Positions 8,276 through 62,570 of a DNA stretch of 64,000 nucleotides are shown here, piece by piece. The notes below the pieces were generated by a model, which had not been told where the DNA came from, did no database searches, and saw nothing but the letters and a program-made list of their open reading frames with translations. The DNA lies in NCBI GenBank assembly GCA_964633445.1, contig CAZWFW010000001.1, forward strand, positions 6,339 through 70,338, in the 5' to 3' direction. Source of the DNA: Candidatus Undinarchaeota archaeon (lineage in GTDB: Archaea > Undinarchaeota > CAZWFW01). A program made the translations under genes and the position numbers. Position 1 is the stretch's first letter. Every line of letters begins with the position of its first letter.

Positions 8276-8650
8276 TTCCTTTCACTCATCTTTGTGAATA
8301 AGCATATCTTCGATCGTTCTGTTCTTGATTCTTGAGAAATATTTCTTAGAATTGCTAACCCAAAATATAAAAACTTTTCCAAATTTTCTACTGTGTTGCA
8401 TGATTCATGCAAAACGGTAGCATAAGCCCTTAAAACTCTAAATAAGCATTATAATTGCTTCCTCAGAGCTCACATCAGAAAGAGCTCGCATACCTCAGAT
8501 TGCCAAAAGAAGGAAGAGATAACGGTTTTTTTAAATAATTGTGCAACACAGTACAAATTTTCAATCTGCGAAATAAGGATTATCAGCTAAAGATAGAAAA
8601 GAAACCGATAAAAACTATAATTTTTTAAAAATTTCAACAAAATATATACT

Positions 8651-12063: not shown

Positions 12064-15000
12064 TTATTTTATAATAAGAGTTATTGCCTCGCTCTGTCCT
12101 CTTATATCACTATACATACCATAAGCTACCGCTGGCTTGGCATAAACGACGCTTGGATATTCAGCAACTAATTCATATTCTATGCTTGCCTCACCCAAAT
12201 GATTAATAAACCACGAGATTTTGTTACCATTAATTTCATACCTCACAATATTCTCACTTAAGTCATCCTTTAGCGAAGTTTCTTTAACCCTGAATCCAGG
12301 AGGTATGTAATCTTCAAGAATAACATAGTAGATATCGTTGCCCCTAATGCTTATTTTAACATTCACAACATCCCCAACCCTTGCAACTGTTTTGTTATAA
12401 CTCTTTTCAACGATTATATCTTTTTCAGGTAAAATCTGCAGCGTTTCGGTTGTTTGCTTAACAATTATGGTATAATAAGGATTGCCAATACCCTCTTTTC
12501 TTATTTCAATAACATTTCTTCCTGTTTCTAAATATTTAGTCACATCAATGATGTAAAGTTCGTCCTTATTTTCCTCAGTTACTGTAAAGCTTTGAACCTC
12601 TTTACCATTAACAAAAATGCTTAGTTTATAGTCCGCTTTTTGTTCCTTAGTAATCTTACTATACTCATATATTGCTAGCAGCGCCTCAGCAGTATCTTTT
12701 GTTGTATACCAACCGTAATATCTCTTGTTCTCAATTAACCACTTAATCGCCTCTTGAACAATTCCGTAATACTTAACATTCTCCGTTGCTAATAACGCCC
12801 TTATAGCACATGCAGTTGTTTCAACATCACCTGCAAGTGCTTTACCATGCCAATGGTTATTAACTGCCATGTCATAAAGCTTTTCGGCTAAATGGCTGGT
12901 ATCTCTTCCTGCTTTTTCATAGGCTAGGATTATTAGGGAGAGTGTGTAAGCATCCTCAACATTCTCATGATCTTCCAAATATTCAAGTGCTTTCTGAATA
13001 TGATAATCATCTTTGCTAACACCACTTTCAAGCAAAGCTAAAGTTACGTAAGCTGTCATAGCAACATCATTACCCCTTAACCAATGACTACCATGCCATG
13101 CACCATTGTATTCTTGTCTCTGCATCAAAACCCTCTGAGCCCCATCAATTATGCTCCCATCAACATAGAAACCTACCTGTTTGGCTTTAGCTAGGCCAAA
13201 TAATACGTAAGCCGTCATGAACTCATTAGTAGCATCATTTTCCCACCACCCCCATCCCCCATCGCTATGTCTAAAGCTATAAATTCTTTGTAAACCTTTA
13301 GCTATCATATCATCAAGCTTTTTCTCAAATTCCTCATCAAGCATACCTTTTTCTTTTAGAAGCATTTTGATTATGATATCAGGATATAAGCTACTCATCG
13401 TTTGTTCAACACATCCGTAAGGATACCTTGCAAGTCTTTCTACCCCTACAATTGAAATGCTTAGTAAAGTAGGTTGGATGAGGATCTTAGCATTGGTAAA
13501 TTCTGGAATAGCATTTTCGTATATCTCAAACTCCTTTTTAACATAATTGCTTTCAAGCACACCTGAAAATGATAAGGTTATTGGCTCTATCTTTGGCGTA
13601 ATCAAAATTTGCTTTCTTACGCCATCTGAATACTCGCCTGAATAAGCAACTACAGTGACATTTGCTGAGCCATAACTTGTTAACTTAACATACCAACTTA
13701 CCTCCTTCGCTTCATTTGGTCTTAATCTAACTACTTTTGTTTCATTATCCAGTATGACAAATTTCTTGGATTGAATTAAGGTAACATAAGCATCTATGCT
13801 TTCATCCAAAAAGTTAAACACCCTAGCGCTTATGGTTACCTCATCCCCAACCGTCGCTTCACTAGGCACATGAACCTTTATAAAGAAGTCTTTCTTGGCA
13901 ATAACCTCAGCATCATTATTACTTCCAACATCACAATTCTTAGAGGCTGCTAAGGCAAGAACTTGCCACGTTGTTATACTATCAGGCAATTTGAATTTTA
14001 CCTCTGCGGTACCATCTTTTGCTATAATTTCTTTCCATAAAGCTGTGTCTGGGAAGTAGTATCTTATCTCTATTCCCTTAGGAATATACCCAACACCCCT
14101 TGCCTCTTCTTCTAGCGTTTTAGGTGCCCCAATACCCGCAGCCCATTCCTCATATGTGAGATACTGTGGTGCGGCCCTCATAACCATTCCTCCCATAAGG
14201 AACATGCCTATAAGCAAGAAAACTACAACAAAAATTGCTGAGAGAATCGCTACACAAACAAGCACTGGTTTTCTCATATCTTTTCTTATAGCAGCTAAAA
14301 TGGCCAAAGCTATTATGAAAATTGGTAAAATCCAGAAGGCAGATGCTCCTGAAATTACTAAAAGAAGTAGAGAAAATGGAACAGCTAATCCAGCCAAGTA
14401 GTATCTTGTAGGTCTCCTTTTTACTTTGAGAATTACCAAAGCACCAAGCAAGGACGCAGTTGAGATGGTTGCCCACGCATCTTCATCTACATATCCGATT
14501 CCGAGAACATCAATAATTACTGCAAGAATAAATGCAGCCCCTAAGATTAAAGTTGGTAGTATAGCATACAAATATCTTGCTCTTCCAGTTTTAGCTAAAT
14601 ATACTGATGCAAGCGCTAGTGTTAGCAAAACTATAACTATAGCTAGAAGAATAAGTTTTTCAGCAATTTCGTTAACTTTCCACCTATCCACCTCAATTGC
14701 TGTTAGCGATACTCTGATGCTTTGAGCAGGGTTAGCATAATAGTGCTCAAATGGCGAGAATTTGTTTTCTTTCAGTATTTGAACAGATTTATCTATTACT
14801 GCAAAACTAACTAATGCTGAAATTGGCTTATTATCTTTAGAAACTTTAAATTTTATAGTTGCTTCTTCTCTTGGCTCATAAATTTTCTTATCGGATATTA
14901 TTTCAACATCTAGTTTCTTATCTGGCAAAACGTATATTGAAATTTCGTCATATGGGCAGGGAACACCATAACTTCCTTTAACAAGTTTTGGCGAAACATA

Positions 15001-32597: not shown

Positions 32598-33089
32598 TCA
32601 AATAACTTTACCACCTTGATACCTACCATTGTATTTCTCAGCTTTTCCTTCAACTTTTTCAAAAACAATTTGAGCAATTTTGGCAAACCTTTTAACTCTA
32701 AATTCGTAATTTGAAAAATTCTTAATACCAAAAGTTAATGCGCCTTTATAACCAGGATCTACTAATGCTGTAAAAATATAAACTCCGCATCTAAAAAGCG
32801 TAGATCTTGGTAAAATTCTTGCAATTAAGTTACTTGGAATATTAACCTTTTCAACAGTTTTTACAAGATAATACTCATTTGGTTTAATTACATAAACATC
32901 CCCACAAATCTCTTCAACTTCTGGAAGCTTTCTTGAATTAATTCCAAGTCTAGCATCACTTTTTATCTTATACAGAACATCAAGTCTCAAATCATAGCCT
33001 GCTCCTTGCAAATTTTCTTTCTTAAAATTCTCTATTAAAGGAGGGTTTTCCGCAACTAACTTTTCAATTTCACTTTTTGCAAGTATCAT
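32598..33089 (-). CDS. dcd: dCTP deaminase / dUTPase-fold protein
   Basis: 163 aa. GYDLRL and the Tyr/Gly-rich beta-jelly-roll motifs (IFTALVDPGYKGALTFGIKN) are typical of the Dcd/Dut family. Confidence 0.65.
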   Translation of the reverse strand: MILAKSEIEKLVAENPPLIENFKKENLQGAGYDLRLDVLYKIKSDARLGINSRKLPEVEEICGDVYVIKPNEYYLVKTVEKVNIPSNLIARILPRSTLFRCGVYIFTALVDPGYKGALTFGIKNFSNYEFRVKRFAKIAQIVFEKVEGKAEKYNGRYQGGKVI

Positions 33090-33139
33090 ATAGTTATTTT
33101 AGGTTTTTTGAAAAATTTATCTTCATGTTGTTTGCAAGA

Positions 33140-33370
33140 CCCAATGCGTAAGCGTGGGGATACGCAATGGGAGGCGGGTGGGAAATATTTAAATACTTTG
33201 AAGTTGTATAAACAGTAATCTCGCAACAGCCGTTAAGGCCGGACAGCCCGTGAGGATAACGGGTAGTGGCCTCGTGAACAGGCCTGTGAGGATAAGGGTG
33301 GTAGAAATCCACCAAACTCCTCACGAAGCTCCTTTCGTAAGGGAGGGGCAGTTTACAGCCCTGTTTTTCC
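33140..33370. ncRNA. GC-rich intergenic island 1: candidate structured RNA and/or regulatory repeat module (family not identified)
   Basis: About 230 nt of G+C-rich sequence in an AT-rich genome. Strong hairpins: CCCAATGCGUA..UACGCAAUGGG, GGCC-UCGUGAACA-GGCC, CCCG-UGAGGAUAA-CGGG and GGUGG-UAGAAAU-CCACC. A plus-strand TATA-like AAAAATTTAT lies at 33111-33120 and a T5 run at 33364-33368. The strand is not certain. Confidence 0.35.
33169..33198 (-). promoter_or_regulatory. consensus archaeal TATA box (TTTAAATA) module oriented toward dcd, shared with the hypC upstream region
   Basis: The minus strand reads AAGTATTTAAATATTTCCCACCCGCCTCCC. This is 28/30 identical to 62418-62446 on the plus strand. 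TATA at 33186-33195 lies about 100 nt upstream of the dcd ATG. Confidence 0.4.
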
Positions 33371-34004
33371 AATATTTCTTGAGAAGCTCTCCAGAAGCAT
33401 ATGCACTAAGAAGTGCGAAAAGTGAAAAATTAACTCTTCTTTCAAAGCTGCCAATTAATTTCACTTCTACAAATTCCTTTCTTTCAAAAGCTTTGACAAG
33501 AATTCTACAAACCTTTCTATTGTTTAAATAACCCTCCAAATAAATAAACTCGTTTTTTAAAATTTTTATAGTGTAGGATGTTTTTTTGATTTTACCCATT
33601 AAAAATCTAAATTCGCTATTCTTTATCAAAAGTTTTGCGAATTGTTTTCTTAGTGAAAGCAATATCGGATTTCCACTCCCACCAAATTCCAAAATAACGT
33701 CCTTTAAAGACTTTTTAGTAGTAAGAATTATTTTACCCTCCAGATATACAGGTATCGAAAAAAGTAGATAATAGGAGGTAGAAACAGCATCCAGCCAGAT
33801 CTCGTAATAACAATGTTTACAGAATAGAAAAAGTGAAAATGAAGATAGAAAATATCCAGGGGAATGAGGAATACCATTTTTAATGAAAGGGAATATTAGA
33901 GCATAGATACATGAATGCAACAAAAATAGATATGTTGCTAAAAATAGTTTAAGCAAACCAAAAATTATAAACAGAGAATCGAGAAGATAAATCAAACTTA
34001 CCAA
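33321..34004 (-). CDS. hypothetical protein with N-terminal TM segments
   Basis: 227 aa. The hydrophobic N-terminus is followed by a basic soluble domain. The last about 18 codons run into GC island 1. Confidence 0.4.
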   Translation of the reverse strand: MVSLIYLLDSLFIIFGLLKLFLATYLFLLHSCIYALIFPFIKNGIPHSPGYFLSSFSLFLFCKHCYYEIWLDAVSTSYYLLFSIPVYLEGKIILTTKKSLKDVILEFGGSGNPILLSLRKQFAKLLIKNSEFRFLMGKIKKTSYTIKILKNEFIYLEGYLNNRKVCRILVKAFERKEFVEVKLIGSFERRVNFSLFALLSAYASGELLKKYWKNRAVNCPSLTKGAS

Positions 34005-34151
34005 TAAAAGTGCAAAAGTAGCATAAAGGTATTTTTAAAATAATTTCTCTTAATTCAAAAATTAATAAATAAAATGTTAAATAGTAAAAGCTTAAGTATA
34101 TGCCCAATAGGAAAATCTTGTAAATTTTGCTGAAGTTCATAAATTTCCATA

Positions 34152-41023: not shown

Positions 41024-41776
41024 CTATGTAATATAAATTTTTATTCTCTCATATATACTTCTTAACTCCTCTATAGAAAGGGAATAAACTTTTCTATGTA
41101 GAATTTCATCATCAAAAGGTAAACGAACTCTATATGCAGCCTCAAAAGCATTTTTTAGTGTTTTTCTTCTGTAGCAGAAAACTTTGTCAACGAATCTGCC
41201 GAAATCATTGTCAAGAATTCTTTTAGATTTCGGTTCTATAAGAACTATAGCTGAAAATACTTTTGGAACGGGTCTAAAATTTCTTGGATGGATAAATCTC
41301 AATATTTTCCCTTCGGCAAGCATATTAAATTTGACTGAGAGTCTACCATAATTAGGCATACCTGGTTTAGCTATCATCTTCTCAGCAAATTCTTTTTGAA
41401 ACATTAAAACTCCTAGCTCAAAATCGTAGCTCAAAATTTTAAAAAGTAGTTTGGAGGATATTGAATAGGGAATGTTGGATACCACTTTATTAAATTTTGG
41501 GAAATTAACTTTAAGAGCATCTCCCAAAATTACCTCTAAATTCTTAGCATCTTTAAACCTATTTTTTAGATATTCTACCAATAACCTATCTTTTTCTATT
41601 ACAATAACTTTCCTAGCTTTCCTGATGAGATATTTTGTTAGTATTCCTCTCCCTGCCCCTATCTCAAAAACTGTGTCCTTCTTATTCACATTTGCATACT
41701 TAACTTGCTTTTTTGCAATATTTTCGTTAATCAAAAATACTTGTCCTAGCTTTTTAGCTCTATAATTCCTTGGCAT
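41024..41776 (-). CDS. ksgA: 16S rRNA (adenine1518/1519-N6)-dimethyltransferase KsgA/Dim1
   Basis: LGQVFL start motif and a SAM-binding VFEIGAGRGILT motif. Confidence 0.85.
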   Translation of the reverse strand: MPRNYRAKKLGQVFLINENIAKKQVKYANVNKKDTVFEIGAGRGILTKYLIRKARKVIVIEKDRLLVEYLKNRFKDAKNLEVILGDALKVNFPKFNKVVSNIPYSISSKLLFKILSYDFELGVLMFQKEFAEKMIAKPGMPNYGRLSVKFNMLAEGKILRFIHPRNFRPVPKVFSAIVLIEPKSKRILDNDFGRFVDKVFCYRRKTLKNAFEAAYRVRLPFDDEILHRKVYSLSIEELRSIYERIKIYIT

Positions 41777-44085: not shown

Positions 44086-45207
44086 TTATTTTTTAAATTT
44101 TCTAATCTCCTCTAATTTTTTGCTGAATTCCTTTAGAGAATTAGCAAATCCCTCAACACTTGCTGTAACTTCCTCAGCCCCAGCTGCGTTCTCTTCAGCT
44201 GCTGCAGCAATTTCTGTTATTGTTGTCGAAACTTGTTGTATATTTTTAGCTTGTTGTTGTTGGGATGCAGAAACTTGCTGCATTTGTGCAGCAATTCTCT
44301 GAATGGCTTCAGCAATAGTTCTAAATGCTAGTAAAGCATTAGCAGATGTTTTGACAGCCTTTGTAACACTACTTTTGGCTATTCCTGCAGATTCTACAGA
44401 TTTAGCGCTATAAGTTTGTATTTCTCCAAGTAAATCGGAAATTTTTGTTGCAGCAACTCTTGAATTTTCAGCCAACTTTCTAATCTCATCAGCAACTACT
44501 GCGAATCCTCTACCAGCTTCACCAGCTCTTGCAGCTTCTATAGCAGCATTTAATGCTAGTAAGTTAGTTTGTAATGATATATCTTTTATAGTTTCGACAA
44601 TTTTTCCAATTTCCTGACTTTTACCACCCAAATTTTTAATTATATCAGAAAGCTCCACAACAATTTTCTCGCTATTTTTAAGCTCCTCTATAGCTTTTTC
44701 AGCGCCTTCCTTACCCCTAGTAGCACTTTTACTTATATCAACTGCAAGTTTTTCTGCTTTCTGAATACTTGAGCTAATTTGTTGTGAAGCTGCTGAAAGC
44801 TCTATAATTGCTTTTCTAATGTCCTCAATTTGAATAGATTGATTTTGAGCATTTTTTGCCATTTGCTGAGTAACAGCATTAATTTCCTTGGAAACATCGA
44901 CAATATTTGAAAAAGACTTCATCATCTTTTCTATTTCGCTGGAAATACCTTCTTTTACTTTCACTTCAATAGAGTCTAAAACATCGTTTAAAGCTTGTGC
45001 AAAAACTTTGAAATTAGGATCGGGAATCTCATCTGGGTTTACTCTTGCCTTTATATTTCCCTCCTTGTATATTCTAAGCAAAACTTCACATATCTTACCA
45101 ATACTTTCACTAATTTCAGAGGCTACTCTTCCCACTTCCTCAGGTTTGTTAACATGTTCAAAAACTTTAGCTTTTAACTCGTTTATGTCCAAAAATTTCT
45201 CAGTCAT
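44086..45207 (-). CDS. methyl-accepting chemotaxis protein, soluble (no TM helices)
   Basis: Highly conserved signalling hairpin [34 protein letters not shown]. Methylation-helix heptads. No hydrophobic segment. Confidence 0.85.
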
Positions 45208-45299
45208 TCTATTTTTTTGTTTCTTTTACATAATTTTTATCAAAGCTCAAAGGAATTACCATCTATAAGTAATTGTTATCATCTAAAAGTTAAAAATCT

Positions 45300-45480
45300 T
45301 ATTATCTTCATGTTACTTGCAAGATCCCAGTAGCCCACTCTTAACGAGAGTGGTATGCGGGGACTGTGAGCTGGAGGGTGTATGAGCTTAGAGCGTAAAG
45401 CTCTGGGTGAATGTCTAAACTTGCAAGCCATGAAAAGATTAAGGATTGGATTGAAAGTGTGTACGGAAAACAATCAACTC
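45300..45480. ncRNA. GC-rich intergenic island 2: candidate structured RNA (family not identified)
   Basis: About 180 nt GC-rich stretch between two minus-strand genes. Its 5' end CTTCATGTTACTTGCAAGATCCCAGTAG aligns (about 25/30) with the 5' end of island 1, CTTCATGTTGTTTGCAAGACCCAATGCG. Both are preceded by AAAAAT-TTAT-like TATA elements. Hairpin CCACUC-UUAACGA-GAGUGG. Confidence 0.3.
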
Positions 45481-45753
45481 CTCTTCTAATGAAGGATCTG
45501 AAGAAAAAATATGAAAAAATATATGAATAGGAAAGTTTTGGTGGGAAAGATACTTTTTCTAACCTTTAGGAATCTTTGGGAAATGTTAAGGCAAGTTTGA
45601 AAACAGATCAATTAGTTTTATGAATCTGCAAATCGAATGGATCTGGTGGTTTGGTTATGTGTGTTTATAATCAAAAATTATTGAAACGCAACGTATTCAA
45701 TTAGGAAAAATTACTTAATTATAAAAATAAAAATTAGAGAGCTAGAAGTAAAG

Positions 45754-46491
45754 TTATTGTCCGATACTCTTAAAAATTCTTAAAAACTCCATTGGAATCA
45801 CTATGGTGACATTCTTCTCCGCTGCAACCTCCGAAATTGTTTGTAAGTATCTTAAACTTGCAGCATCTACGCCAAGAATTTCAGCTGCTTGTTTTAATCT
45901 TTGCGCAGCTTGAACTTCAGCCTCAGCGGTTATTATTCTTGCCCTTCTATCTCTTTCAGCTTCTGCAGCTCTAGCCATTGCTCTATGCATCTCCTCAGGA
46001 ATCTGTACATCTTTTATCTCAACCGCTGAAACTTTTACACCCCAAGGATCTGTTGCCAAATCGATTTGCTCCTGCAATACCTGATTTATTTTCTCTCTTT
46101 CAGCAAGTACCTCATCAAGCTCTGCTTTACCAACAACCGCTCTTAACGTAGTTTGAGCAATCTGGCTTGTTGCATACATGTAATCTTCAACCTTACAAAC
46201 TGCTTTTTCTGCATCGAAGACTCTTGCGTATACTACTGCATTGACCTTTACTGGTACATTATCCTTCGTAATGATTTCCTGGGGAGGCACATCAATTACA
46301 AATGTCCTCAGACTTATGATGTTTATCTTATCTATTACTGGTATAACGAATATTAATCCTGGTCCCTTAACACCGTGCAACCTTCCTAGTCTAAAAACAA
46401 CTGCTCTTTCATACTCTTTTAGTATCCTAATGGCTCTGCTCACTATAAAAAGCAAGATTATTAATACTGCAATTAATGTTCCCCATCCCAT
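45754..46491 (-). CDS. SPFH/band-7 protein (stomatin/prohibitin homolog)
   Basis: N-terminal TM, then an SPFH core ([31 protein letters not shown]) and a C-terminal coiled coil. Confidence 0.8.
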
Positions 46492-47751
46492 TCACATCTC
46501 CTCCACTATTAATATTAGCCCATCCTCCTTTATATCAACTATTCTAACCTTTCTCCCTTCCTCAGCCTTACCATCTTTATTTCTAAGCACAGCATTCCAA
46601 ATCTCACCTTCAACCAGAACTTTACCCTCTGGTTGTAATGTCTTAATTACTTTAGCTTCCTTACCAATCAATTCCTCCTTACCAACCTTAGGCTTACCTA
46701 TCTGGGCCCTTATACCTTTATAGATTGCAAAGATGAAAAAAGCTGCAAATGTACCAACAGTTGCAAGTATTACCTCTATGGGCAAACTCGGCATCAGAGG
46801 TTCTTTTAGAAGCATTAGAGAGCCTAGTATTATTGCTACTGAAGCACCTAATGTTAATAAGCCATGAGAAGGTACAAAGAGTTCTGCAGCGAGCATAGCT
46901 GTGCCAATCATTATAAGTAAAATCGCTGCTGCGCTAACTTCAAGAGTCCCAAAGGCGTATAAAGCCAAAATTAATAGCGTTATGCCCAGAACACCACCAA
47001 TTGTTATTCCTGGAATTAATAATTCAAAAATTAGGCCGTATAAACCAAGGATAAAAAGTAGATAGGCAACAGTTGGATCCGTAATTAACCTTAGGAAGTA
47101 TTCTCTTGACGTTTCTTTTATCTCGATTCTTCCTCTGGTATTTAAAGTAAAAGGCTTTCCTTTAACGGTAATGTTTTTTCCATCCAAATAATCAAGCAGG
47201 CTATCCTCGTTTTCAAAAATGCCATTTATAATGTGAGCTTTATATGCTTCATTAGCATCATATGCTTTGCTTTCATTTATCATAACCTCTATTGCGGTAG
47301 CATTTCTATTTCTTTCCTCTGCAAATGCTTTTAACCTTGCCATATATGCCCTAGTTATTTTCTCAAGCAAAACCTCATCTTCAGCACCAACGGGATGCGC
47401 TGCACCAATTGCCGAGTTATTAGCCATTGCCGCATAATGACTTGCAATAACAATAAATGCGCCTGCTGAAAATGCTTTCTTACCCGCAGGAACATATGTG
47501 ATTATAGGAATTCTCGATTCCTCAATTTTCTCGAGAATTCTGTCAGTGGCGTCTGCTGTTCCTCCTGGGGTATTAATAATTATCAATAAAGCAGCATCCT
47601 CAGAATTTGCTAAGTTTATACATCTTTCCAAATATTCAGCCACACCATGATCTATTACGCTATCAACCTCAGCAATGTAAACTTTAGCACAGGAAGTTTT
47701 GGAAATTAAAACTAGCATTAAGGTAAAAATGAGTACTTGCTTGATCGTCAT
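46492..47751 (-). CDS. NfeD-like membrane-bound ClpP-class serine protease (stomatin operon partner)
   Basis: N-terminal ClpP/crotonase-like domain (GGTADATDRI..AFSAGAFI), central TM helices, and a C-terminal OB/NfeD beta-barrel. It sits immediately upstream of stomatin, the classical pair. Confidence 0.75.
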   Translation of the reverse strand: MTIKQVLIFTLMLVLISKTSCAKVYIAEVDSVIDHGVAEYLERCINLANSEDAALLIIINTPGGTADATDRILEKIEESRIPIITYVPAGKKAFSAGAFIVIASHYAAMANNSAIGAAHPVGAEDEVLLEKITRAYMARLKAFAEERNRNATAIEVMINESKAYDANEAYKAHIINGIFENEDSLLDYLDGKNITVKGKPFTLNTRGRIEIKETSREYFLRLITDPTVAYLLFILGLYGLIFELLIPGITIGGVLGITLLILALYAFGTLEVSAAAILLIMIGTAMLAAELFVPSHGLLTLGASVAIILGSLMLLKEPLMPSLPIEVILATVGTFAAFFIFAIYKGIRAQIGKPKVGKEELIGKEAKVIKTLQPEGKVLVEGEIWNAVLRNKDGKAEEGRKVRIVDIKEDGLILIVEEM

Positions 47752-62319: not shown

Positions 62320-62417
62320 CTGTGAACTACCCACCGTTTTTAATGGGTGGCTTCCCCCAGATAAACACCACCACGGCTGGGGTCGGGCTGTTCACGAGCC
62401 CCGATGCCACCCATCAA
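62320..62417. other. GC-rich intergenic island 3: structured element upstream of the hypC promoter
   Basis: Nested helices: GGGUGGC...GCCACCC (62345-51 / 62406-12) enclose CCCCAG..CUGGGG and GGGCU-GUUCACG-AGCCC. The GUUCACGA hairpin loop is the same as the one in island 1 (33268-33284, opposite strand). Confidence 0.3.
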
Positions 62418-62446
62418 AGGTATTTAAATATTTCCCACCTCCTCCC
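62418..62446 (+). promoter_or_regulatory. consensus archaeal TATA box (TATTTAAATA) module oriented toward hypC
   Basis: AGGTATTTAAATATTTCCCACCTCCTCCC is nearly identical to the minus-strand module at 33169-33198. TATA at 62421-62430 lies about 140 nt upstream of the hypC ATG. Confidence 0.4.
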
Positions 62447-62570
62447 TAATTCACCCACCGATTGAAATCAGGGGTACTCTTAGCGACATTTTTATGGAAA
62501 TATTTATACTCTGCAAGACATTATTTTAACCTCTCAAATTTAGAAATACAGGGAAGTCAATGAAAAATTT

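What the first reader, a model, noticed from the sequence alone, without database searches (positions are those of the whole stretch)
45285..45485. Second GC-rich island sharing its promoter-proximal 30 nt with island 1
Both sequences are on the plus strand and both follow an AAAAAT...TTAT element.
- Island 2, from 45301: ATCTTCATGTTACTTGCAAGATCCCAGTAGCC.
- Island 1, from 33119: ATCTTCATGTTGTTTGCAAGACCCAATGCG.
They match at about 25 of 30 positions. Each is followed by a hairpin; island 2 has CCACTC-TTAACGA-GAGTGG. Island 2 lies in a 546-nt gap between two minus-strand genes, so there is plenty of room for an independent plus-strand RNA. Conservation that extends from the TATA region into the transcribed part suggests paralogous small RNAs or a repeated cis-element.
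Basis: seen in the sequence. Interest (0 to 1): 0.55.

Follow-up and report, generated by a model that had tools for sequence, protein, structure and literature searches.

The report
Shared end-module of dispersed GC-rich repeats
The 30-base match is real: it is the conserved end of a short GC-rich repeated element that is scattered through several heat-loving archaeal genomes and most resembles the ends of small IS200/IS605-type jumping elements and their HgcC-type RNAs, so it is a modest new variant of a known kind.

Summary
ATCTTCATGTTNNTTGCAAGA occurs twice in the window (33119 and 45304, not 45301), against 0 expected from shuffles. It is absent from the tRNA promoters and from about 50 other promoters.

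The window looks like a thermophilic Altiarchaeota-like archaeon. Exact-pattern scans of public genomes and metagenomes found the same 21-mer in three other genomes. In two of them the homology to island 1 continues for another ~55 nt.

Every copy is laid out as T-rich TTTAT/ATTAT, then a 19-nt module, then a GC-rich hairpin, then a G-rich tract. Flanks are unrelated. A close relative lacks island 1, and a degenerate copy interrupts a methyltransferase gene exactly after TTTAT.

Island 1's second half is homologous to an HgcC RNA, a family transcribed from tnpB 3' ends. It ends in a hairpin plus 10 nt. The 19-nt and 10-nt spacings copy the IS608 left and right ends.

My best reading, at about 0.45, is that these are non-autonomous IS200/IS605-type (PATE-like) elements that are probably transcribed. 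Island 2 is a 140-nt member closed by an inverted, degenerate copy of the module.

No transposase gene was seen, no transcript data exist, Rfam gives no hit, and island 2 has no homolog beyond its first ~75 nt. The main rival is paralogous sRNA genes sharing a dedicated promoter.

The parts
45301..45305 (+). T-rich pentamer ATTAT directly 5' of the module. It is TTTAT in the four other full copies. It is a candidate target or cleavage-site motif, and could alternatively be part of a TATA-like box.
   Evidence: Homology among the copies starts here, and upstream flanks are unrelated except in the L003/L008 duplicate pair.
45306..45324 (+). 19-nt conserved module CTTCATGTTACTTGCAAGA (the 21-mer runs 45304-45324).
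   Evidence: It is identical or differs at up to 2 positions in window island 1, L001/L006, L003/L008 and L005.
45326..45362 (+). Composite GC-rich hairpin. The outer stems are CCC.GUA / UGC.GGG and the inner stem is CCACUCUU-AAC-GAGAGUGG. It corresponds to the hairpin at 33140-33171 of island 1, with an inserted inner stem.
   Evidence: G-U pairs make it specific to the + strand.
45363..45381 (+). G-rich tract ACTGTGAGCTGGAGGGTGT, the counterpart of GGGAGGCGGGTGGG in island 1.
   Evidence: GC skew is +0.5 here.
45386..45408 (+). Second hairpin GCUUAGAGC-GUAAA-GCUCUGGGU, with three G-U pairs. Its format resembles the GUAA-loop hairpins of island 1 and of the L005 HgcC RNA.
45409..45418 (+). 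10-nt tail GAATGTCTAA between the second hairpin and the inverted module copy. The spacing is the one expected at a right end.
   Evidence: Sequence. IS608 geometry is taken from PMC3201880. The link between the two is an inference.
45419..45444 (-). Inverted, degenerate copy of the module (bottom strand: TTAAT CTTTTCATGGCTTGCAAGT). It can pair with 45304-45324 to close the 140-nt unit.
   Evidence: (I10). One search gives a duplex of -17.4 kcal/mol, reached by 13 of 500 shuffles.
33116..33139 (+). Island 1: TTTAT followed by the 19-nt module CTTCATGTTGTTTGCAAGA.
33140..33182 (+). Island 1 hairpin, which has two alternative folds: CCCAATGC-GTAA-GCGTGGGG, or CCCA.TGCGTA...TACGCA.TGGG. It is followed by the G-rich tract GGGAGGCGGGTGGG. 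This stretch is homologous in L003 (86% over 66 nt) and in L005 (84%).
33224..33358 (+). Island 1 second half, an HgcC-like structured segment. It starts CAACAGCCGTTAAG and ends with the hairpin CTCCTTTC-GTAA-GGGAGGGG (33329-33348) plus the 10-nt tail CAGTTTACAG. A T-run follows at 33363-33368.
   Evidence: local alignment to the L005 HgcC, z = 4.6, 0 of 400 shuffles; nhmmer E = 0.0036; the L005 copy scores 48.9 bits against Rfam HgcC.
62322..62487 (-). A third GC-rich island of the same superfamily. It starts GUCGCUAAGAG and ends with a hairpin plus UAGUUCAC. It shares a 34-nt segment (91% identity) with island 1.
   Evidence: L005 holds two homologous copies, and homology among all the copies stops right after GTTCAC.

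Best explanation
Islands 1 and 2 are members of a dispersed family of short GC-rich repeated elements. The elements are built like the ends of IS200/IS605-family insertion sequences, that is, non-autonomous 'PATE-like' derivatives whose right-hand parts are HgcC-type (tnpB 3'-end / omega-RNA-type) RNAs.

The shared 30 nt is the left-end module. It consists of a T-rich pentamer (TTTAT/ATTAT, the presumed target and cleavage site, which lies outside the element), exactly 19-20 nt of conserved sequence (CTTCATGTTRYTTGCAAGA), and then the foot of a GC-rich hairpin that forms only on the + (G-rich) strand.

The right ends are a similar hairpin followed by about 10 nt: ...CAGTTTACAG in island 1, ...GGTCAC or ...GTTCAC in relatives, and GAATGTCTAA in island 2.

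Island 2 (about 45301-45444) is a 140-nt mini-element. Its right flank is an inverted, degenerate copy of the 19-nt module, so as single-stranded DNA or as RNA the unit closes on itself.

What is shown:
- the conservation of the module across genomes;
- the unrelated flanks;
- the hairpin format, with compensatory changes;
- the homology of island 1's second half to an HgcC RNA;
- the absence of island 1 from a close relative;
- a break in gene homology exactly after TTTAT.

What is inferred:
- mobilisation in trans by a Y1 transposase (TnpA);
- transcription, possibly from a TATA-like box formed by the T-rich pentamer and its flank, giving a small structured RNA;
- any present-day function.
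For: 1. The module is not chance and not a generic promoter.
2. The same 21-mer, always preceded by T-rich TTTAT/ATTAT, is found in L001/L006, L003/L008 and L005 with unrelated flanks. In L003 and L005 homology to island 1 runs about 55 nt further.
3. The geometry matches IS608. In IS608 the left cleavage site lies 19 nt 5' of the hairpin foot, and the right cleavage site lies 10 nt 3' of the hairpin (PMC3201880). Here there are 19 nt (20 in island 2) between TTTAT and the hairpin, and 8-10 nt between the terminal hairpins and the point where homology between copies ends.
4. The 4 nt before the hairpin foot (AAGA) and the last 4 nt of the pentamer (TTAT) repeat the IS608 guide/cleavage-site pattern AAAG/TTAC: T-A, T-A, a purine-purine mismatch, then a pyrimidine-purine pair.
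5. The 8-bp hairpin format with a GNRA-type loop (GUAA, GAAA in one copy) recurs at left-end-like and right-end-like positions. 95% of cells are paired, 3 pairs show changes on both sides, and 0 of 500 shuffles reach the covariation score. The U-G pairs make it strand-specific.
6. L005 370-490 matches Rfam HgcC (48.9 bits, E = 5e-10). Island 1's second half is homologous to it. HgcC RNAs are transcribed from the 3' ends of IS1341-type tnpB genes and resemble PATE-derived RNAs (PMC4615843 and PMC4247193).
7. Signs of insertion:
   - The relative L011 (dcd 88% amino-acid identity) has no island 1.
   - The degenerate copy L005b sits in the 3' end of an Mtq2-like gene. Its 80% nucleotide homology to the L011 ortholog stops exactly after TTTAT.
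   - Copy L005a replaces the C-terminus of a membrane protein whose orthologs end differently.
8. Signs of multiple copies:
   - De Bruijn-graph contigs of the same population break inside both islands.
   - The related island-3 family has two copies in L005.
9. No target-site duplication flanks island 2, as expected for IS200/IS605.
Against: - No tnpA or tnpB gene was seen in the 64-kb window or in about 340 kb of related loci (this was a crude motif screen only).
- Rfam's HgcC model does not hit island 1 or island 2 even at E <= 10.
- Apart from its first ~75 nt, island 2 has no detectable homolog anywhere.
- Island 2's putative right end lacks the ...TCAC signature of the other members.
- No clean empty site with homology resuming after the element was found. 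After TTTAT the L005 and L011 sequences simply stop aligning.
- L003 and L008 share 330 nt upstream of the module, so at least that pair arose by segmental duplication and not by transposition.
- The family has only about 6 members, some of them chosen by eye, so the hairpin statistics carry selection bias.
- IS200/IS605 elements normally have no terminal inverted repeats, so the inverted module copy at island 2's right edge is unexplained.
Confidence: 0.45

Rival explanations
1. The islands are ordinary, non-mobile paralogous small-RNA genes that share a dedicated core promoter. The T-rich TTTTATC would be the TATA box, the 19-nt module would be a conserved TATA-to-start spacer (perhaps an operator for one regulator), and transcription would start at or just after ...GCAAGA. 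Each RNA would then begin with a protective 5' GC-rich hairpin.
For: - Every copy has the same spacing from the T-rich box to a pyrimidine-A step 22-26 nt downstream.
- In L001 the module ends 2 nt before the ATG of a DUF2226 gene, as expected for a promoter of a leaderless mRNA. Leaderless architecture is common in this window.
- Both islands are G-rich on the + strand, fold better on that strand, and are followed by T-runs (33363-33368 and 45554-45558).
- The island-3 family shows an analogous block of conserved TATAAAAAT plus a conserved ~14-nt segment before a CCC hairpin.
Against: - The usual TATA boxes of this genome (TTTAAATA / TTTATAAA) look different.
- The stable-RNA (tRNA) promoters do not use the module.
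- This reading does not by itself explain the copies inside gene 3' ends, the absence of island 1 from a close relative, the HgcC homology, the hairpin-plus-10-nt ends, or the inverted module copy at island 2's right edge.
- A promoter inside a transposon left end is also normal, so this rival partly overlaps the best explanation.
Confidence: 0.28
2. Island 2 is a cut-and-paste MITE whose terminal inverted repeats are the 21-nt module. The other copies would be one-ended remnants or solo repeats.
For: - The inverted repeat 45304-45323 / 45420-45439 has about 17 paired positions, with CTTGCAAG and CATG in mirrored order.
- The genome does carry an active MITE of another family.
- A solo module exists in L001.
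Against: - No target-site duplication flanks island 2 under any plausible boundary.
- The right copy is degenerate and 2 nt shorter.
- None of the four other full copies has an inverted partner.
- The hairpins are strand-asymmetric (G-U pairs), which double-stranded terminal-repeat recognition does not need.
Confidence: 0.1
3. The module is a transcription-factor operator that regulates the divergent neighbouring genes (dcd at 33089 and the MCP/che operon at 45207). The GC-rich islands would be incidental.
For: - Both window copies lie upstream of a minus-strand gene start, 30 nt and 97 nt away.
- The module contains a dyad, ATCTT-N12-AAGAT, and the palindrome CTTGCAAG.
Against: - The distances to the two promoters differ.
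- The MCP core promoter (TATA near 45229-45241) does not overlap the module.
- In L003, L005 and L001 the module has no comparable divergent gene.
- The conserved hairpin and G-rich tract downstream are not explained.
Confidence: 0.07
4. Island 2 is the 5' part of a small protein gene: a 35-aa ORF at 45382-45489 preceded by GGAGGGTG.
For: A Shine-Dalgarno-like GGAGGGTG lies 1 nt before the ATG, and the frame stays open for 35 codons.
Against: - No homolog at E <= 0.001 among 1.84 billion representative proteins.
- The GGAGG tract is part of the G-rich segment conserved at the nucleotide level in copies that have no ORF.
- The frame is not conserved between island 1, L003 and L005. L005 carries 1-nt and 2-nt deletions and lacks the ATG.
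Confidence: 0.04

Closest known systems
IS200/IS605-family ends and their non-autonomous derivatives (PATEs; the bacterial counterparts are REP/REPIN elements)
   Same: - Strand-specific subterminal hairpins at both ends.
- A conserved T-rich tetra- or pentanucleotide just outside the left end.
- 19 nt from that site to the left hairpin, and about 10 nt from the right hairpin to the end (IS608: PMC3201880).
- A guide/cleavage-site pattern of AAGA/TTAT, against AAAG/TTAC in IS608 (PMC5934647).
- No target-site duplication.
- Short fused left-plus-right units that are transcribed in haloarchaea (PMC4615843).
   Different: - No cognate tnpA or tnpB was seen.
- There is no sequence similarity to any described element.
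- Island 2 carries an inverted second copy of the left module, which the family does not normally have.
- Transposition is not shown.
HgcC family RNA (Rfam RF00062), i.e. the RNAs transcribed from the 3' ends of IS1341-type tnpB genes
   Same: - GC-rich multi-hairpin RNAs found in AT-rich hyperthermophiles.
- A terminal 8-bp hairpin followed by a G-rich ~10-nt tail (GGAGGTCAC).
- One related locus (L005 370-490) matches the model at 48.9 bits, and island 1's second half is homologous to that copy.
- Standalone copies outside transposase genes are known in Thermococcus (PMC4247193).
   Different: - Neither island reaches any score against the Rfam model.
- Island 2 shares only the hairpin format.
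- The 19-nt module and its left hairpin are not part of the Rfam model.
Archaeal sRNA genes found as GC-rich islands (Klein, Misulovin and Eddy 2002; cited from my own knowledge)
   Same: An island of raised G+C in an AT-rich thermophile intergenic region, with a TATA-like box upstream and a T-run downstream.
   Different: - There are no C/D or H/ACA box features that hold across the copies.
- The element is present or absent between close relatives, and some copies lie inside gene ends.
MITEs with terminal inverted repeats
   Same: A small, non-coding, repeated unit. Island 2 has inverted ends.
   Different: There is no target-site duplication, the other copies are one-ended, and the hairpins are strand-asymmetric.

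Membership tests
HgcC family RNA (Rfam RF00062) | Covariance-model score at or above the gathering score of 50 bits | tested here: not met
   cmscan finds no HgcC match at E <= 10 for 45200-45750 or 33050-33400, and none at E <= 1 for the whole window. The related locus L005 370-490 scores 48.9 bits.
HgcC family RNA (Rfam RF00062) | Sequence homology to a recognised member | tested here: inconclusive
   Island 1's second half against the L005 HgcC gives z = 4.6 with 0 of 400 shuffles and nhmmer E = 0.0036. Island 2 against the same sequence gives z = -1.0 and no nhmmer hit.
IS200/IS605-type element / PATE | Strand-specific subterminal hairpins near both ends | tested here: met
   Hairpins lie at 45326-45362 and 45386-45408 in island 2, and at 33140-33171 and 33329-33348 in island 1. 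They contain G-U pairs and show compensatory changes across copies. The + strand folds better than the - strand (against 42, 43).
IS200/IS605-type element / PATE | A conserved tetra- or pentanucleotide 5' of the left end, at a fixed distance (19 nt in IS608) from the hairpin foot, and a right end about 10 nt after its hairpin | tested here: met
   TTTAT (ATTAT in island 2) lies 19 or 20 nt before the hairpin foot in all five full copies. Terminal hairpins are followed by 8-10 nt up to the point where homology between copies ends. Reference geometry is from PMC3201880.
IS200/IS605-type element / PATE | Insertion without target-site duplication, and an empty site in relatives that retains the target motif | tested here: inconclusive
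   There is no duplication around island 2. Homology of the L005 Mtq2-like gene to its L011 ortholog ends exactly after TTTAT, but it does not resume downstream. L011 lacks island 1, but that whole 1.1-kb region differs between the two genomes.
IS200/IS605-type element / PATE | A cognate TnpA (Y1 transposase) and/or TnpB encoded in the same genome, with full-length elements sharing the same ends | not testable with these tools
A crude RuvC-motif screen of all fetched loci found nothing.
Cut-and-paste MITE | Terminal inverted repeats flanked by a target-site duplication | tested here: not met
   The inverted repeat is present, but no duplication is present, and the other copies lack a second repeat.
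Independent sRNA gene | A mapped transcription start, a defined 3' end and a stable transcript | not testable with these tools
   No transcriptome is available for this uncultured lineage. Only TATA-like boxes and T-runs can be pointed to.

The most novel reading that the evidence does not exclude
The module and its hairpin may define a previously undescribed, clade-specific family of transposase-less HgcC-like RNA elements that has been domesticated. The 19-nt module would act as a portable promoter or operator. Island 2 would be transcribed from two convergent module copies into a sense/antisense pair, or into a 140-nt RNA whose 5' and 3' ends pair in a closed three-way junction, with a regulatory role near the chemotaxis operon.
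Probability: 0.15. Interest if true: 0.6.

Novelty: new variant of a known kind. Interest (0 to 1): 0.4.

Why it matters
If the reading is right, it extends IS200/IS605-type and HgcC-type RNA elements to thermophilic Altiarchaeota-like archaea, in a form that current Rfam models do not detect.

It would also explain why GC-rich 'sRNA-like' islands in such genomes share their 5' sequences, differ between close relatives, break assemblies and truncate gene ends.

It gives a concrete sequence handle (TTTAT + CTTCATGTTRYTTGCAAGA + hairpin) for finding the autonomous element and its TnpA/TnpB, and so a possible thermostable RNA-guided nuclease with its guide RNA.

For genome annotation, it warns against calling these islands regulatory sRNAs or small ORFs without transcript data.

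Tried and rejected
- **Rfam.** Scans at gathering and E-value thresholds of the window and of both islands found only three tRNAs.
- **tRNA or tmRNA fragments.** None.
- **Generic stable-RNA or general promoter consensus.** Rejected: the tRNA and protein-gene upstream regions lack the module.
- **Viral or plasmid origin.**
  - Four IMG/VR pattern scans gave only chance hits or nothing.
  - BLAST of island 1 against plasmids and of island 2 against phages gave nothing.
- **Synteny through NfeD.** This search was wasted. NfeD has only ~40% bacterial relatives, so no comparative locus exists for island 2.
- **Coding reading of the module ('FIFMLLAR...stop').**
  - Upstream frames are closed in 4 of 5 copies.
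  - The downstream frame is broken by indels in L005.
  - The resemblance to an Mtq2 C-terminus is better explained by insertion after TTTAT.
- **Leaderless peptide MRKRGD... in island 1 and L003.** Not conserved in L005.
- **35-aa ORF in island 2.** No homolog.
- **The two window copies as attL/attR of a 12-kb integrated element.** Rejected: the interval holds housekeeping genes that are syntenic in a relative.
- **H/ACA or C/D box sRNA reading of the island 1 and island 3 3' parts ('ACA' ends, GUGA motifs).** Dropped. The boxes are not consistent across copies, and the ends match the HgcC tail.
- **Integron attC.** The R'/R'' core sites are absent (read from the sequence).
- **The 165-nt MITE at 8389-8553.** It has unrelated ends.
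- **Global alignment of island 1 against island 2 beyond the first 30 nt.** Not significant.
- **RNAalifold on the five left modules.** It gives only a weak consensus (-4 kcal/mol). Two alternative hairpins compete.
Full report
**1. What is in the sequence**

The window has 35% G+C and encodes archaeal proteins: TIP49, a GAN/RecJ-like DHH protein, reverse gyrase, TFS and CheW/CheY/MCP. The neighbouring dCTP deaminase has a 100% identical database entry and one relative at 88%. After those, its best named homologs are 'Candidatus Altiarchaeota' at 55-63% identity. The source is therefore an uncultured, probably hyperthermophilic, Altiarchaeota-like archaeon.

Island 2 lies in the 546-nt gap between the start of a minus-strand MCP gene (45207) and the stop of a minus-strand stomatin gene (45754). 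G+C rises to 47-48% over 45300-45449, with a strong G>C skew on the + strand.

- The 21-mer ATCTTCATGTTNNTTGCAAGA matches at 19 of 21 positions.
- TTAT before it matches, and so does CCCA after it once a 1-nt gap is allowed.
- Allowing 3 mismatches, these are the only two sites in 64 kb, and none of 100 shuffles gave any match.

**2. Not a known RNA and not a generic promoter**

Rfam finds only three tRNAs in the window. It finds nothing at either island, even at E <= 10. The three tRNA genes and about 50 protein-gene upstream regions do not contain the module. The usual TATA boxes are TTTAAATA/TTTATAAA about 30 nt before the ATG, and many genes look leaderless.

**3. The module exists in other genomes**

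An exact-pattern scan of 185,579 species genomes gave one hit: L001, a MAG labelled Archaeoglobus sp. JdFR-27. The metagenome scan gave eight stretches. L002, L004/L007 and L009 are chance matches inside coding sequence, as is the one IMG/VR hit L010. L006 is the same sequence as L001. L003/L008 and L005 are real homologs.

In L003 and L005 the identity to island 1 continues for about 55 nt past the module: 86% over 66 nt and 84% over 62 nt.

All five independent full copies have the same layout. Those copies are island 1, island 2, L001, L003/L008 and L005a. The layout is a T-rich pentamer (TTTAT, or ATTAT in island 2), then CTTCATGTTRYTTGCAAGA (19 nt), then, in every copy except L001, a GC-rich hairpin beginning CCC, then a G-rich tract of the type GGGAGGNGGGUGGG.

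Flanks upstream of the pentamer are unrelated, with one exception: the L003/L008 pair shares 330 nt and is a segmental duplicate.

A sixth, degenerate copy (L005b, TTTAT|CTTC-TGTTGCTTACGAGG plus a hairpin) lies at L005 1040->960 on the minus strand.

**4. Island 2's anatomy**

- After the module (45306-45324) comes a composite hairpin at 45326-45362.
- The G-rich tract follows at 45363-45381.
- A second hairpin follows: GCUUAGAGC-GUAAA-GCUCUGGGU at 45386-45408.
- Then come 10 nt, GAATGTCTAA.
- An inverted, degenerate copy of the module lies at 45419-45444.

The two module copies can pair, giving a closed 140-nt fold of -51.4 kcal/mol (z = -3.9). The opposite strand folds less well, at -43.4 kcal/mol. 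The end-to-end duplex alone is only modestly unusual, being reached by 13 of 500 shuffles.

Beyond about 45380, island 2 has no detectable relative in any sequence I could reach. The 35-codon ORF at 45382-45489, which follows GGAGGGTG, has no homolog among 1.84 billion representative proteins.

**5. The link to HgcC and IS200/IS605**

A weak hit of the island 1 hairpin model led to L005 370-490, which matches Rfam HgcC at 48.9 bits (E = 5e-10, gathering score 50).

HgcC RNAs are transcribed from internal starts in the 3' ends of IS1341-type tnpB genes, or stand alone. They share an end-hairpin motif with PATE-derived RNAs (PMC4247193 and PMC4615843).

The second half of island 1 (33224-33358) is homologous to this L005 HgcC (z = 4.6, 0 of 400 shuffles; nhmmer E = 0.0036).

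It ends with an 8-bp hairpin bearing a GUAA loop (33329-33348), then CAGTTTACAG, then a T-run. This mirrors CCCCUUGC-GUAA-GCGAGGGG + AGGAGGUCAC in L005.

A third island in the window (62487->62322, minus strand) has two homologs in L005. Its homology to them stops just after ...GGUAGUUCAC. It also shares a 34-nt stretch at 91% identity with island 1.

The 8-bp hairpin with a GNRA-type loop (GUAA, GAAA in one copy) therefore recurs at 'left' and 'right' positions with different stem sequences. 95% of cells are paired, three pairs have changes on both sides, and 0 of 500 shuffles reach the covariation score. The frequent U-G pairs would be C-A mismatches on the other strand. One caveat applies: I picked these five hairpins by eye.

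**6. Geometry**

In IS608 the left cleavage and target site, TTAC, lies 19 nt 5' of the foot of the left hairpin and outside the element. The right cleavage site lies 10 nt 3' of the right hairpin. Four nucleotides before each hairpin act as guide sequences: GL is AAAG for CL TTAC (PMC3201880 and PMC5934647).

Here the pentamer is 19 nt (20 in island 2) from the hairpin foot, and the right-hand hairpins are followed by 8-10 nt. The four bases before the left hairpin (AAGA), set against TTAT, repeat the IS608 pattern of two T-A pairs, a purine-purine mismatch and one more standard pair. Calling this last point equivalent to IS608 is an inference by analogy, not a test.

**7. Signs of insertion and of multiple copies**

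- The close relative L011 (84-88% nucleotide identity in flanking genes) lacks island 1. The 1.1 kb between dcd and GAN is different there.
- L005b sits in the last codons of an Mtq2-like methyltransferase gene. Alignment with the L011 ortholog (80% nucleotide identity over 552 nt) ends exactly after TTTAT, and the two C-termini differ from that point on.
- L005a likewise replaces the C-terminus of a membrane protein whose two orthologs end ...FLIIIINKIKK. Those orthologs are too distant to fix the breakpoint.
- Logan and ENA contigs of the same population end inside the islands, at 33290/33299 and at 45382/45407, while longer assemblies read through without differences. This fits shared k-mers elsewhere in the metagenome.

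**8. What remains open**

- No transposase gene was seen (a crude screen).
- No clean empty site was found.
- No transcript data exist.
- Island 2's right half is an orphan.
- The position of the transcription start is undetermined. If TTTTATC is the TATA box, transcription would start at or just after the module. That fits L001, where the module ends 2 nt before the ATG of a DUF2226 gene whose Pfam match begins at profile position 16. If other nearby A/T-rich boxes are used instead, the module would be the 5' end of the RNA.
- A promoter inside a transposon left end is normal, so the 'mobile end' and 'promoter' readings are not exclusive.

**9. Verdict**

The best-supported identity is the left-end module of non-autonomous IS200/IS605-type (PATE-like) elements related to HgcC RNAs (confidence about 0.45). 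The main rival is a set of ordinary paralogous sRNA genes with a dedicated promoter (about 0.28). It is a new variant of a known kind and of moderate interest.

Noticed in passing
window 8389-8553; L013 7262-7425 (inserted at window 34049-34057): A 165-nt MITE-like element with terminal inverted repeats TACTGTGTTGCA...TGCAACACAGTA. A 94.5% identical copy is inserted in another assembly of the same population, with a duplication of about 8-9 bp (TTAATTCA). This is an insertion polymorphism, so this unrelated MITE family appears to be active.
   Followed up: partly
window 62322-62487 (minus strand): A third GC-rich island. It starts GUCGCUAAGAG and ends with a hairpin plus UAGUUCAC, and Rfam gives no hit. 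L005 holds two homologous copies (644-896 and 14067-14330), and those L005 copies carry a ~100-nt internal segment that the window copy lacks. It shares a 34-nt stretch (91% identity) with island 1 (33169-33201).
   Followed up: partly
L005 370-490 (+): A near-threshold Rfam HgcC match (48.9 bits against a gathering score of 50). It has a 5' extension that begins GUCGCUAAGA followed by an 8-bp GAAA-loop hairpin. It stands alone with a TATA box upstream and no tnpB next to it.
   Followed up: partly
L011 10809-10870: A canonical-looking C/D box sRNA (AUGAUGA ... CUGA ... AUGAUGA ... CUGA) lies directly after the Mtq2-like gene of the close relative. It is not found at the corresponding place in L005.
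   Followed up: no
window 45754-47751 (minus strand): The NfeD gene has no close archaeal relatives. Apart from its own entry, the best homologs are bacterial at about 40% identity, which suggests that the NfeD-stomatin pair next to island 2 was acquired horizontally. Only NfeD was searched.
   Followed up: no
window 41304-41309: Several independent assemblies of the same population end here or diverge from the window here (L013, L029, L030, L031). This suggests a repeat or a structural variant at this point.
   Followed up: no
window 33290-33299 and 45382-45407: De Bruijn-graph contigs (Logan, ENA) break inside both islands, while JGI and ENA contigs read through with no differences. This hints that other sequences in the sample share k-mers with the island interiors.
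   Followed up: partly
window 45382-45489 (+): A 35-codon ORF (MSLERKALGECLNLQAMKRLRIGLKVCTENNQLLF) follows GGAGGGTG. It has no homolog in 1.84 billion representative proteins.
   Followed up: yes
L001 1274-1623: The bare 21-mer, without a hairpin, ends 2 nt before the ATG of a DUF2226 gene. That gene's Pfam match starts at profile position 16, and its frame appears to be split further downstream. The gene's 5' end may have been replaced at the module.
   Followed up: partly
L003 452-770 (reverse-complement coordinates) and L008: Two contigs from one metagenome share a 330-nt segment (90% identity). It runs from the 3' end of PGF-CTERM surface-protein genes, through a 47-codon signal-peptide-like ORF, to the module. 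The repeat unit there is therefore larger than the element itself.
   Followed up: no
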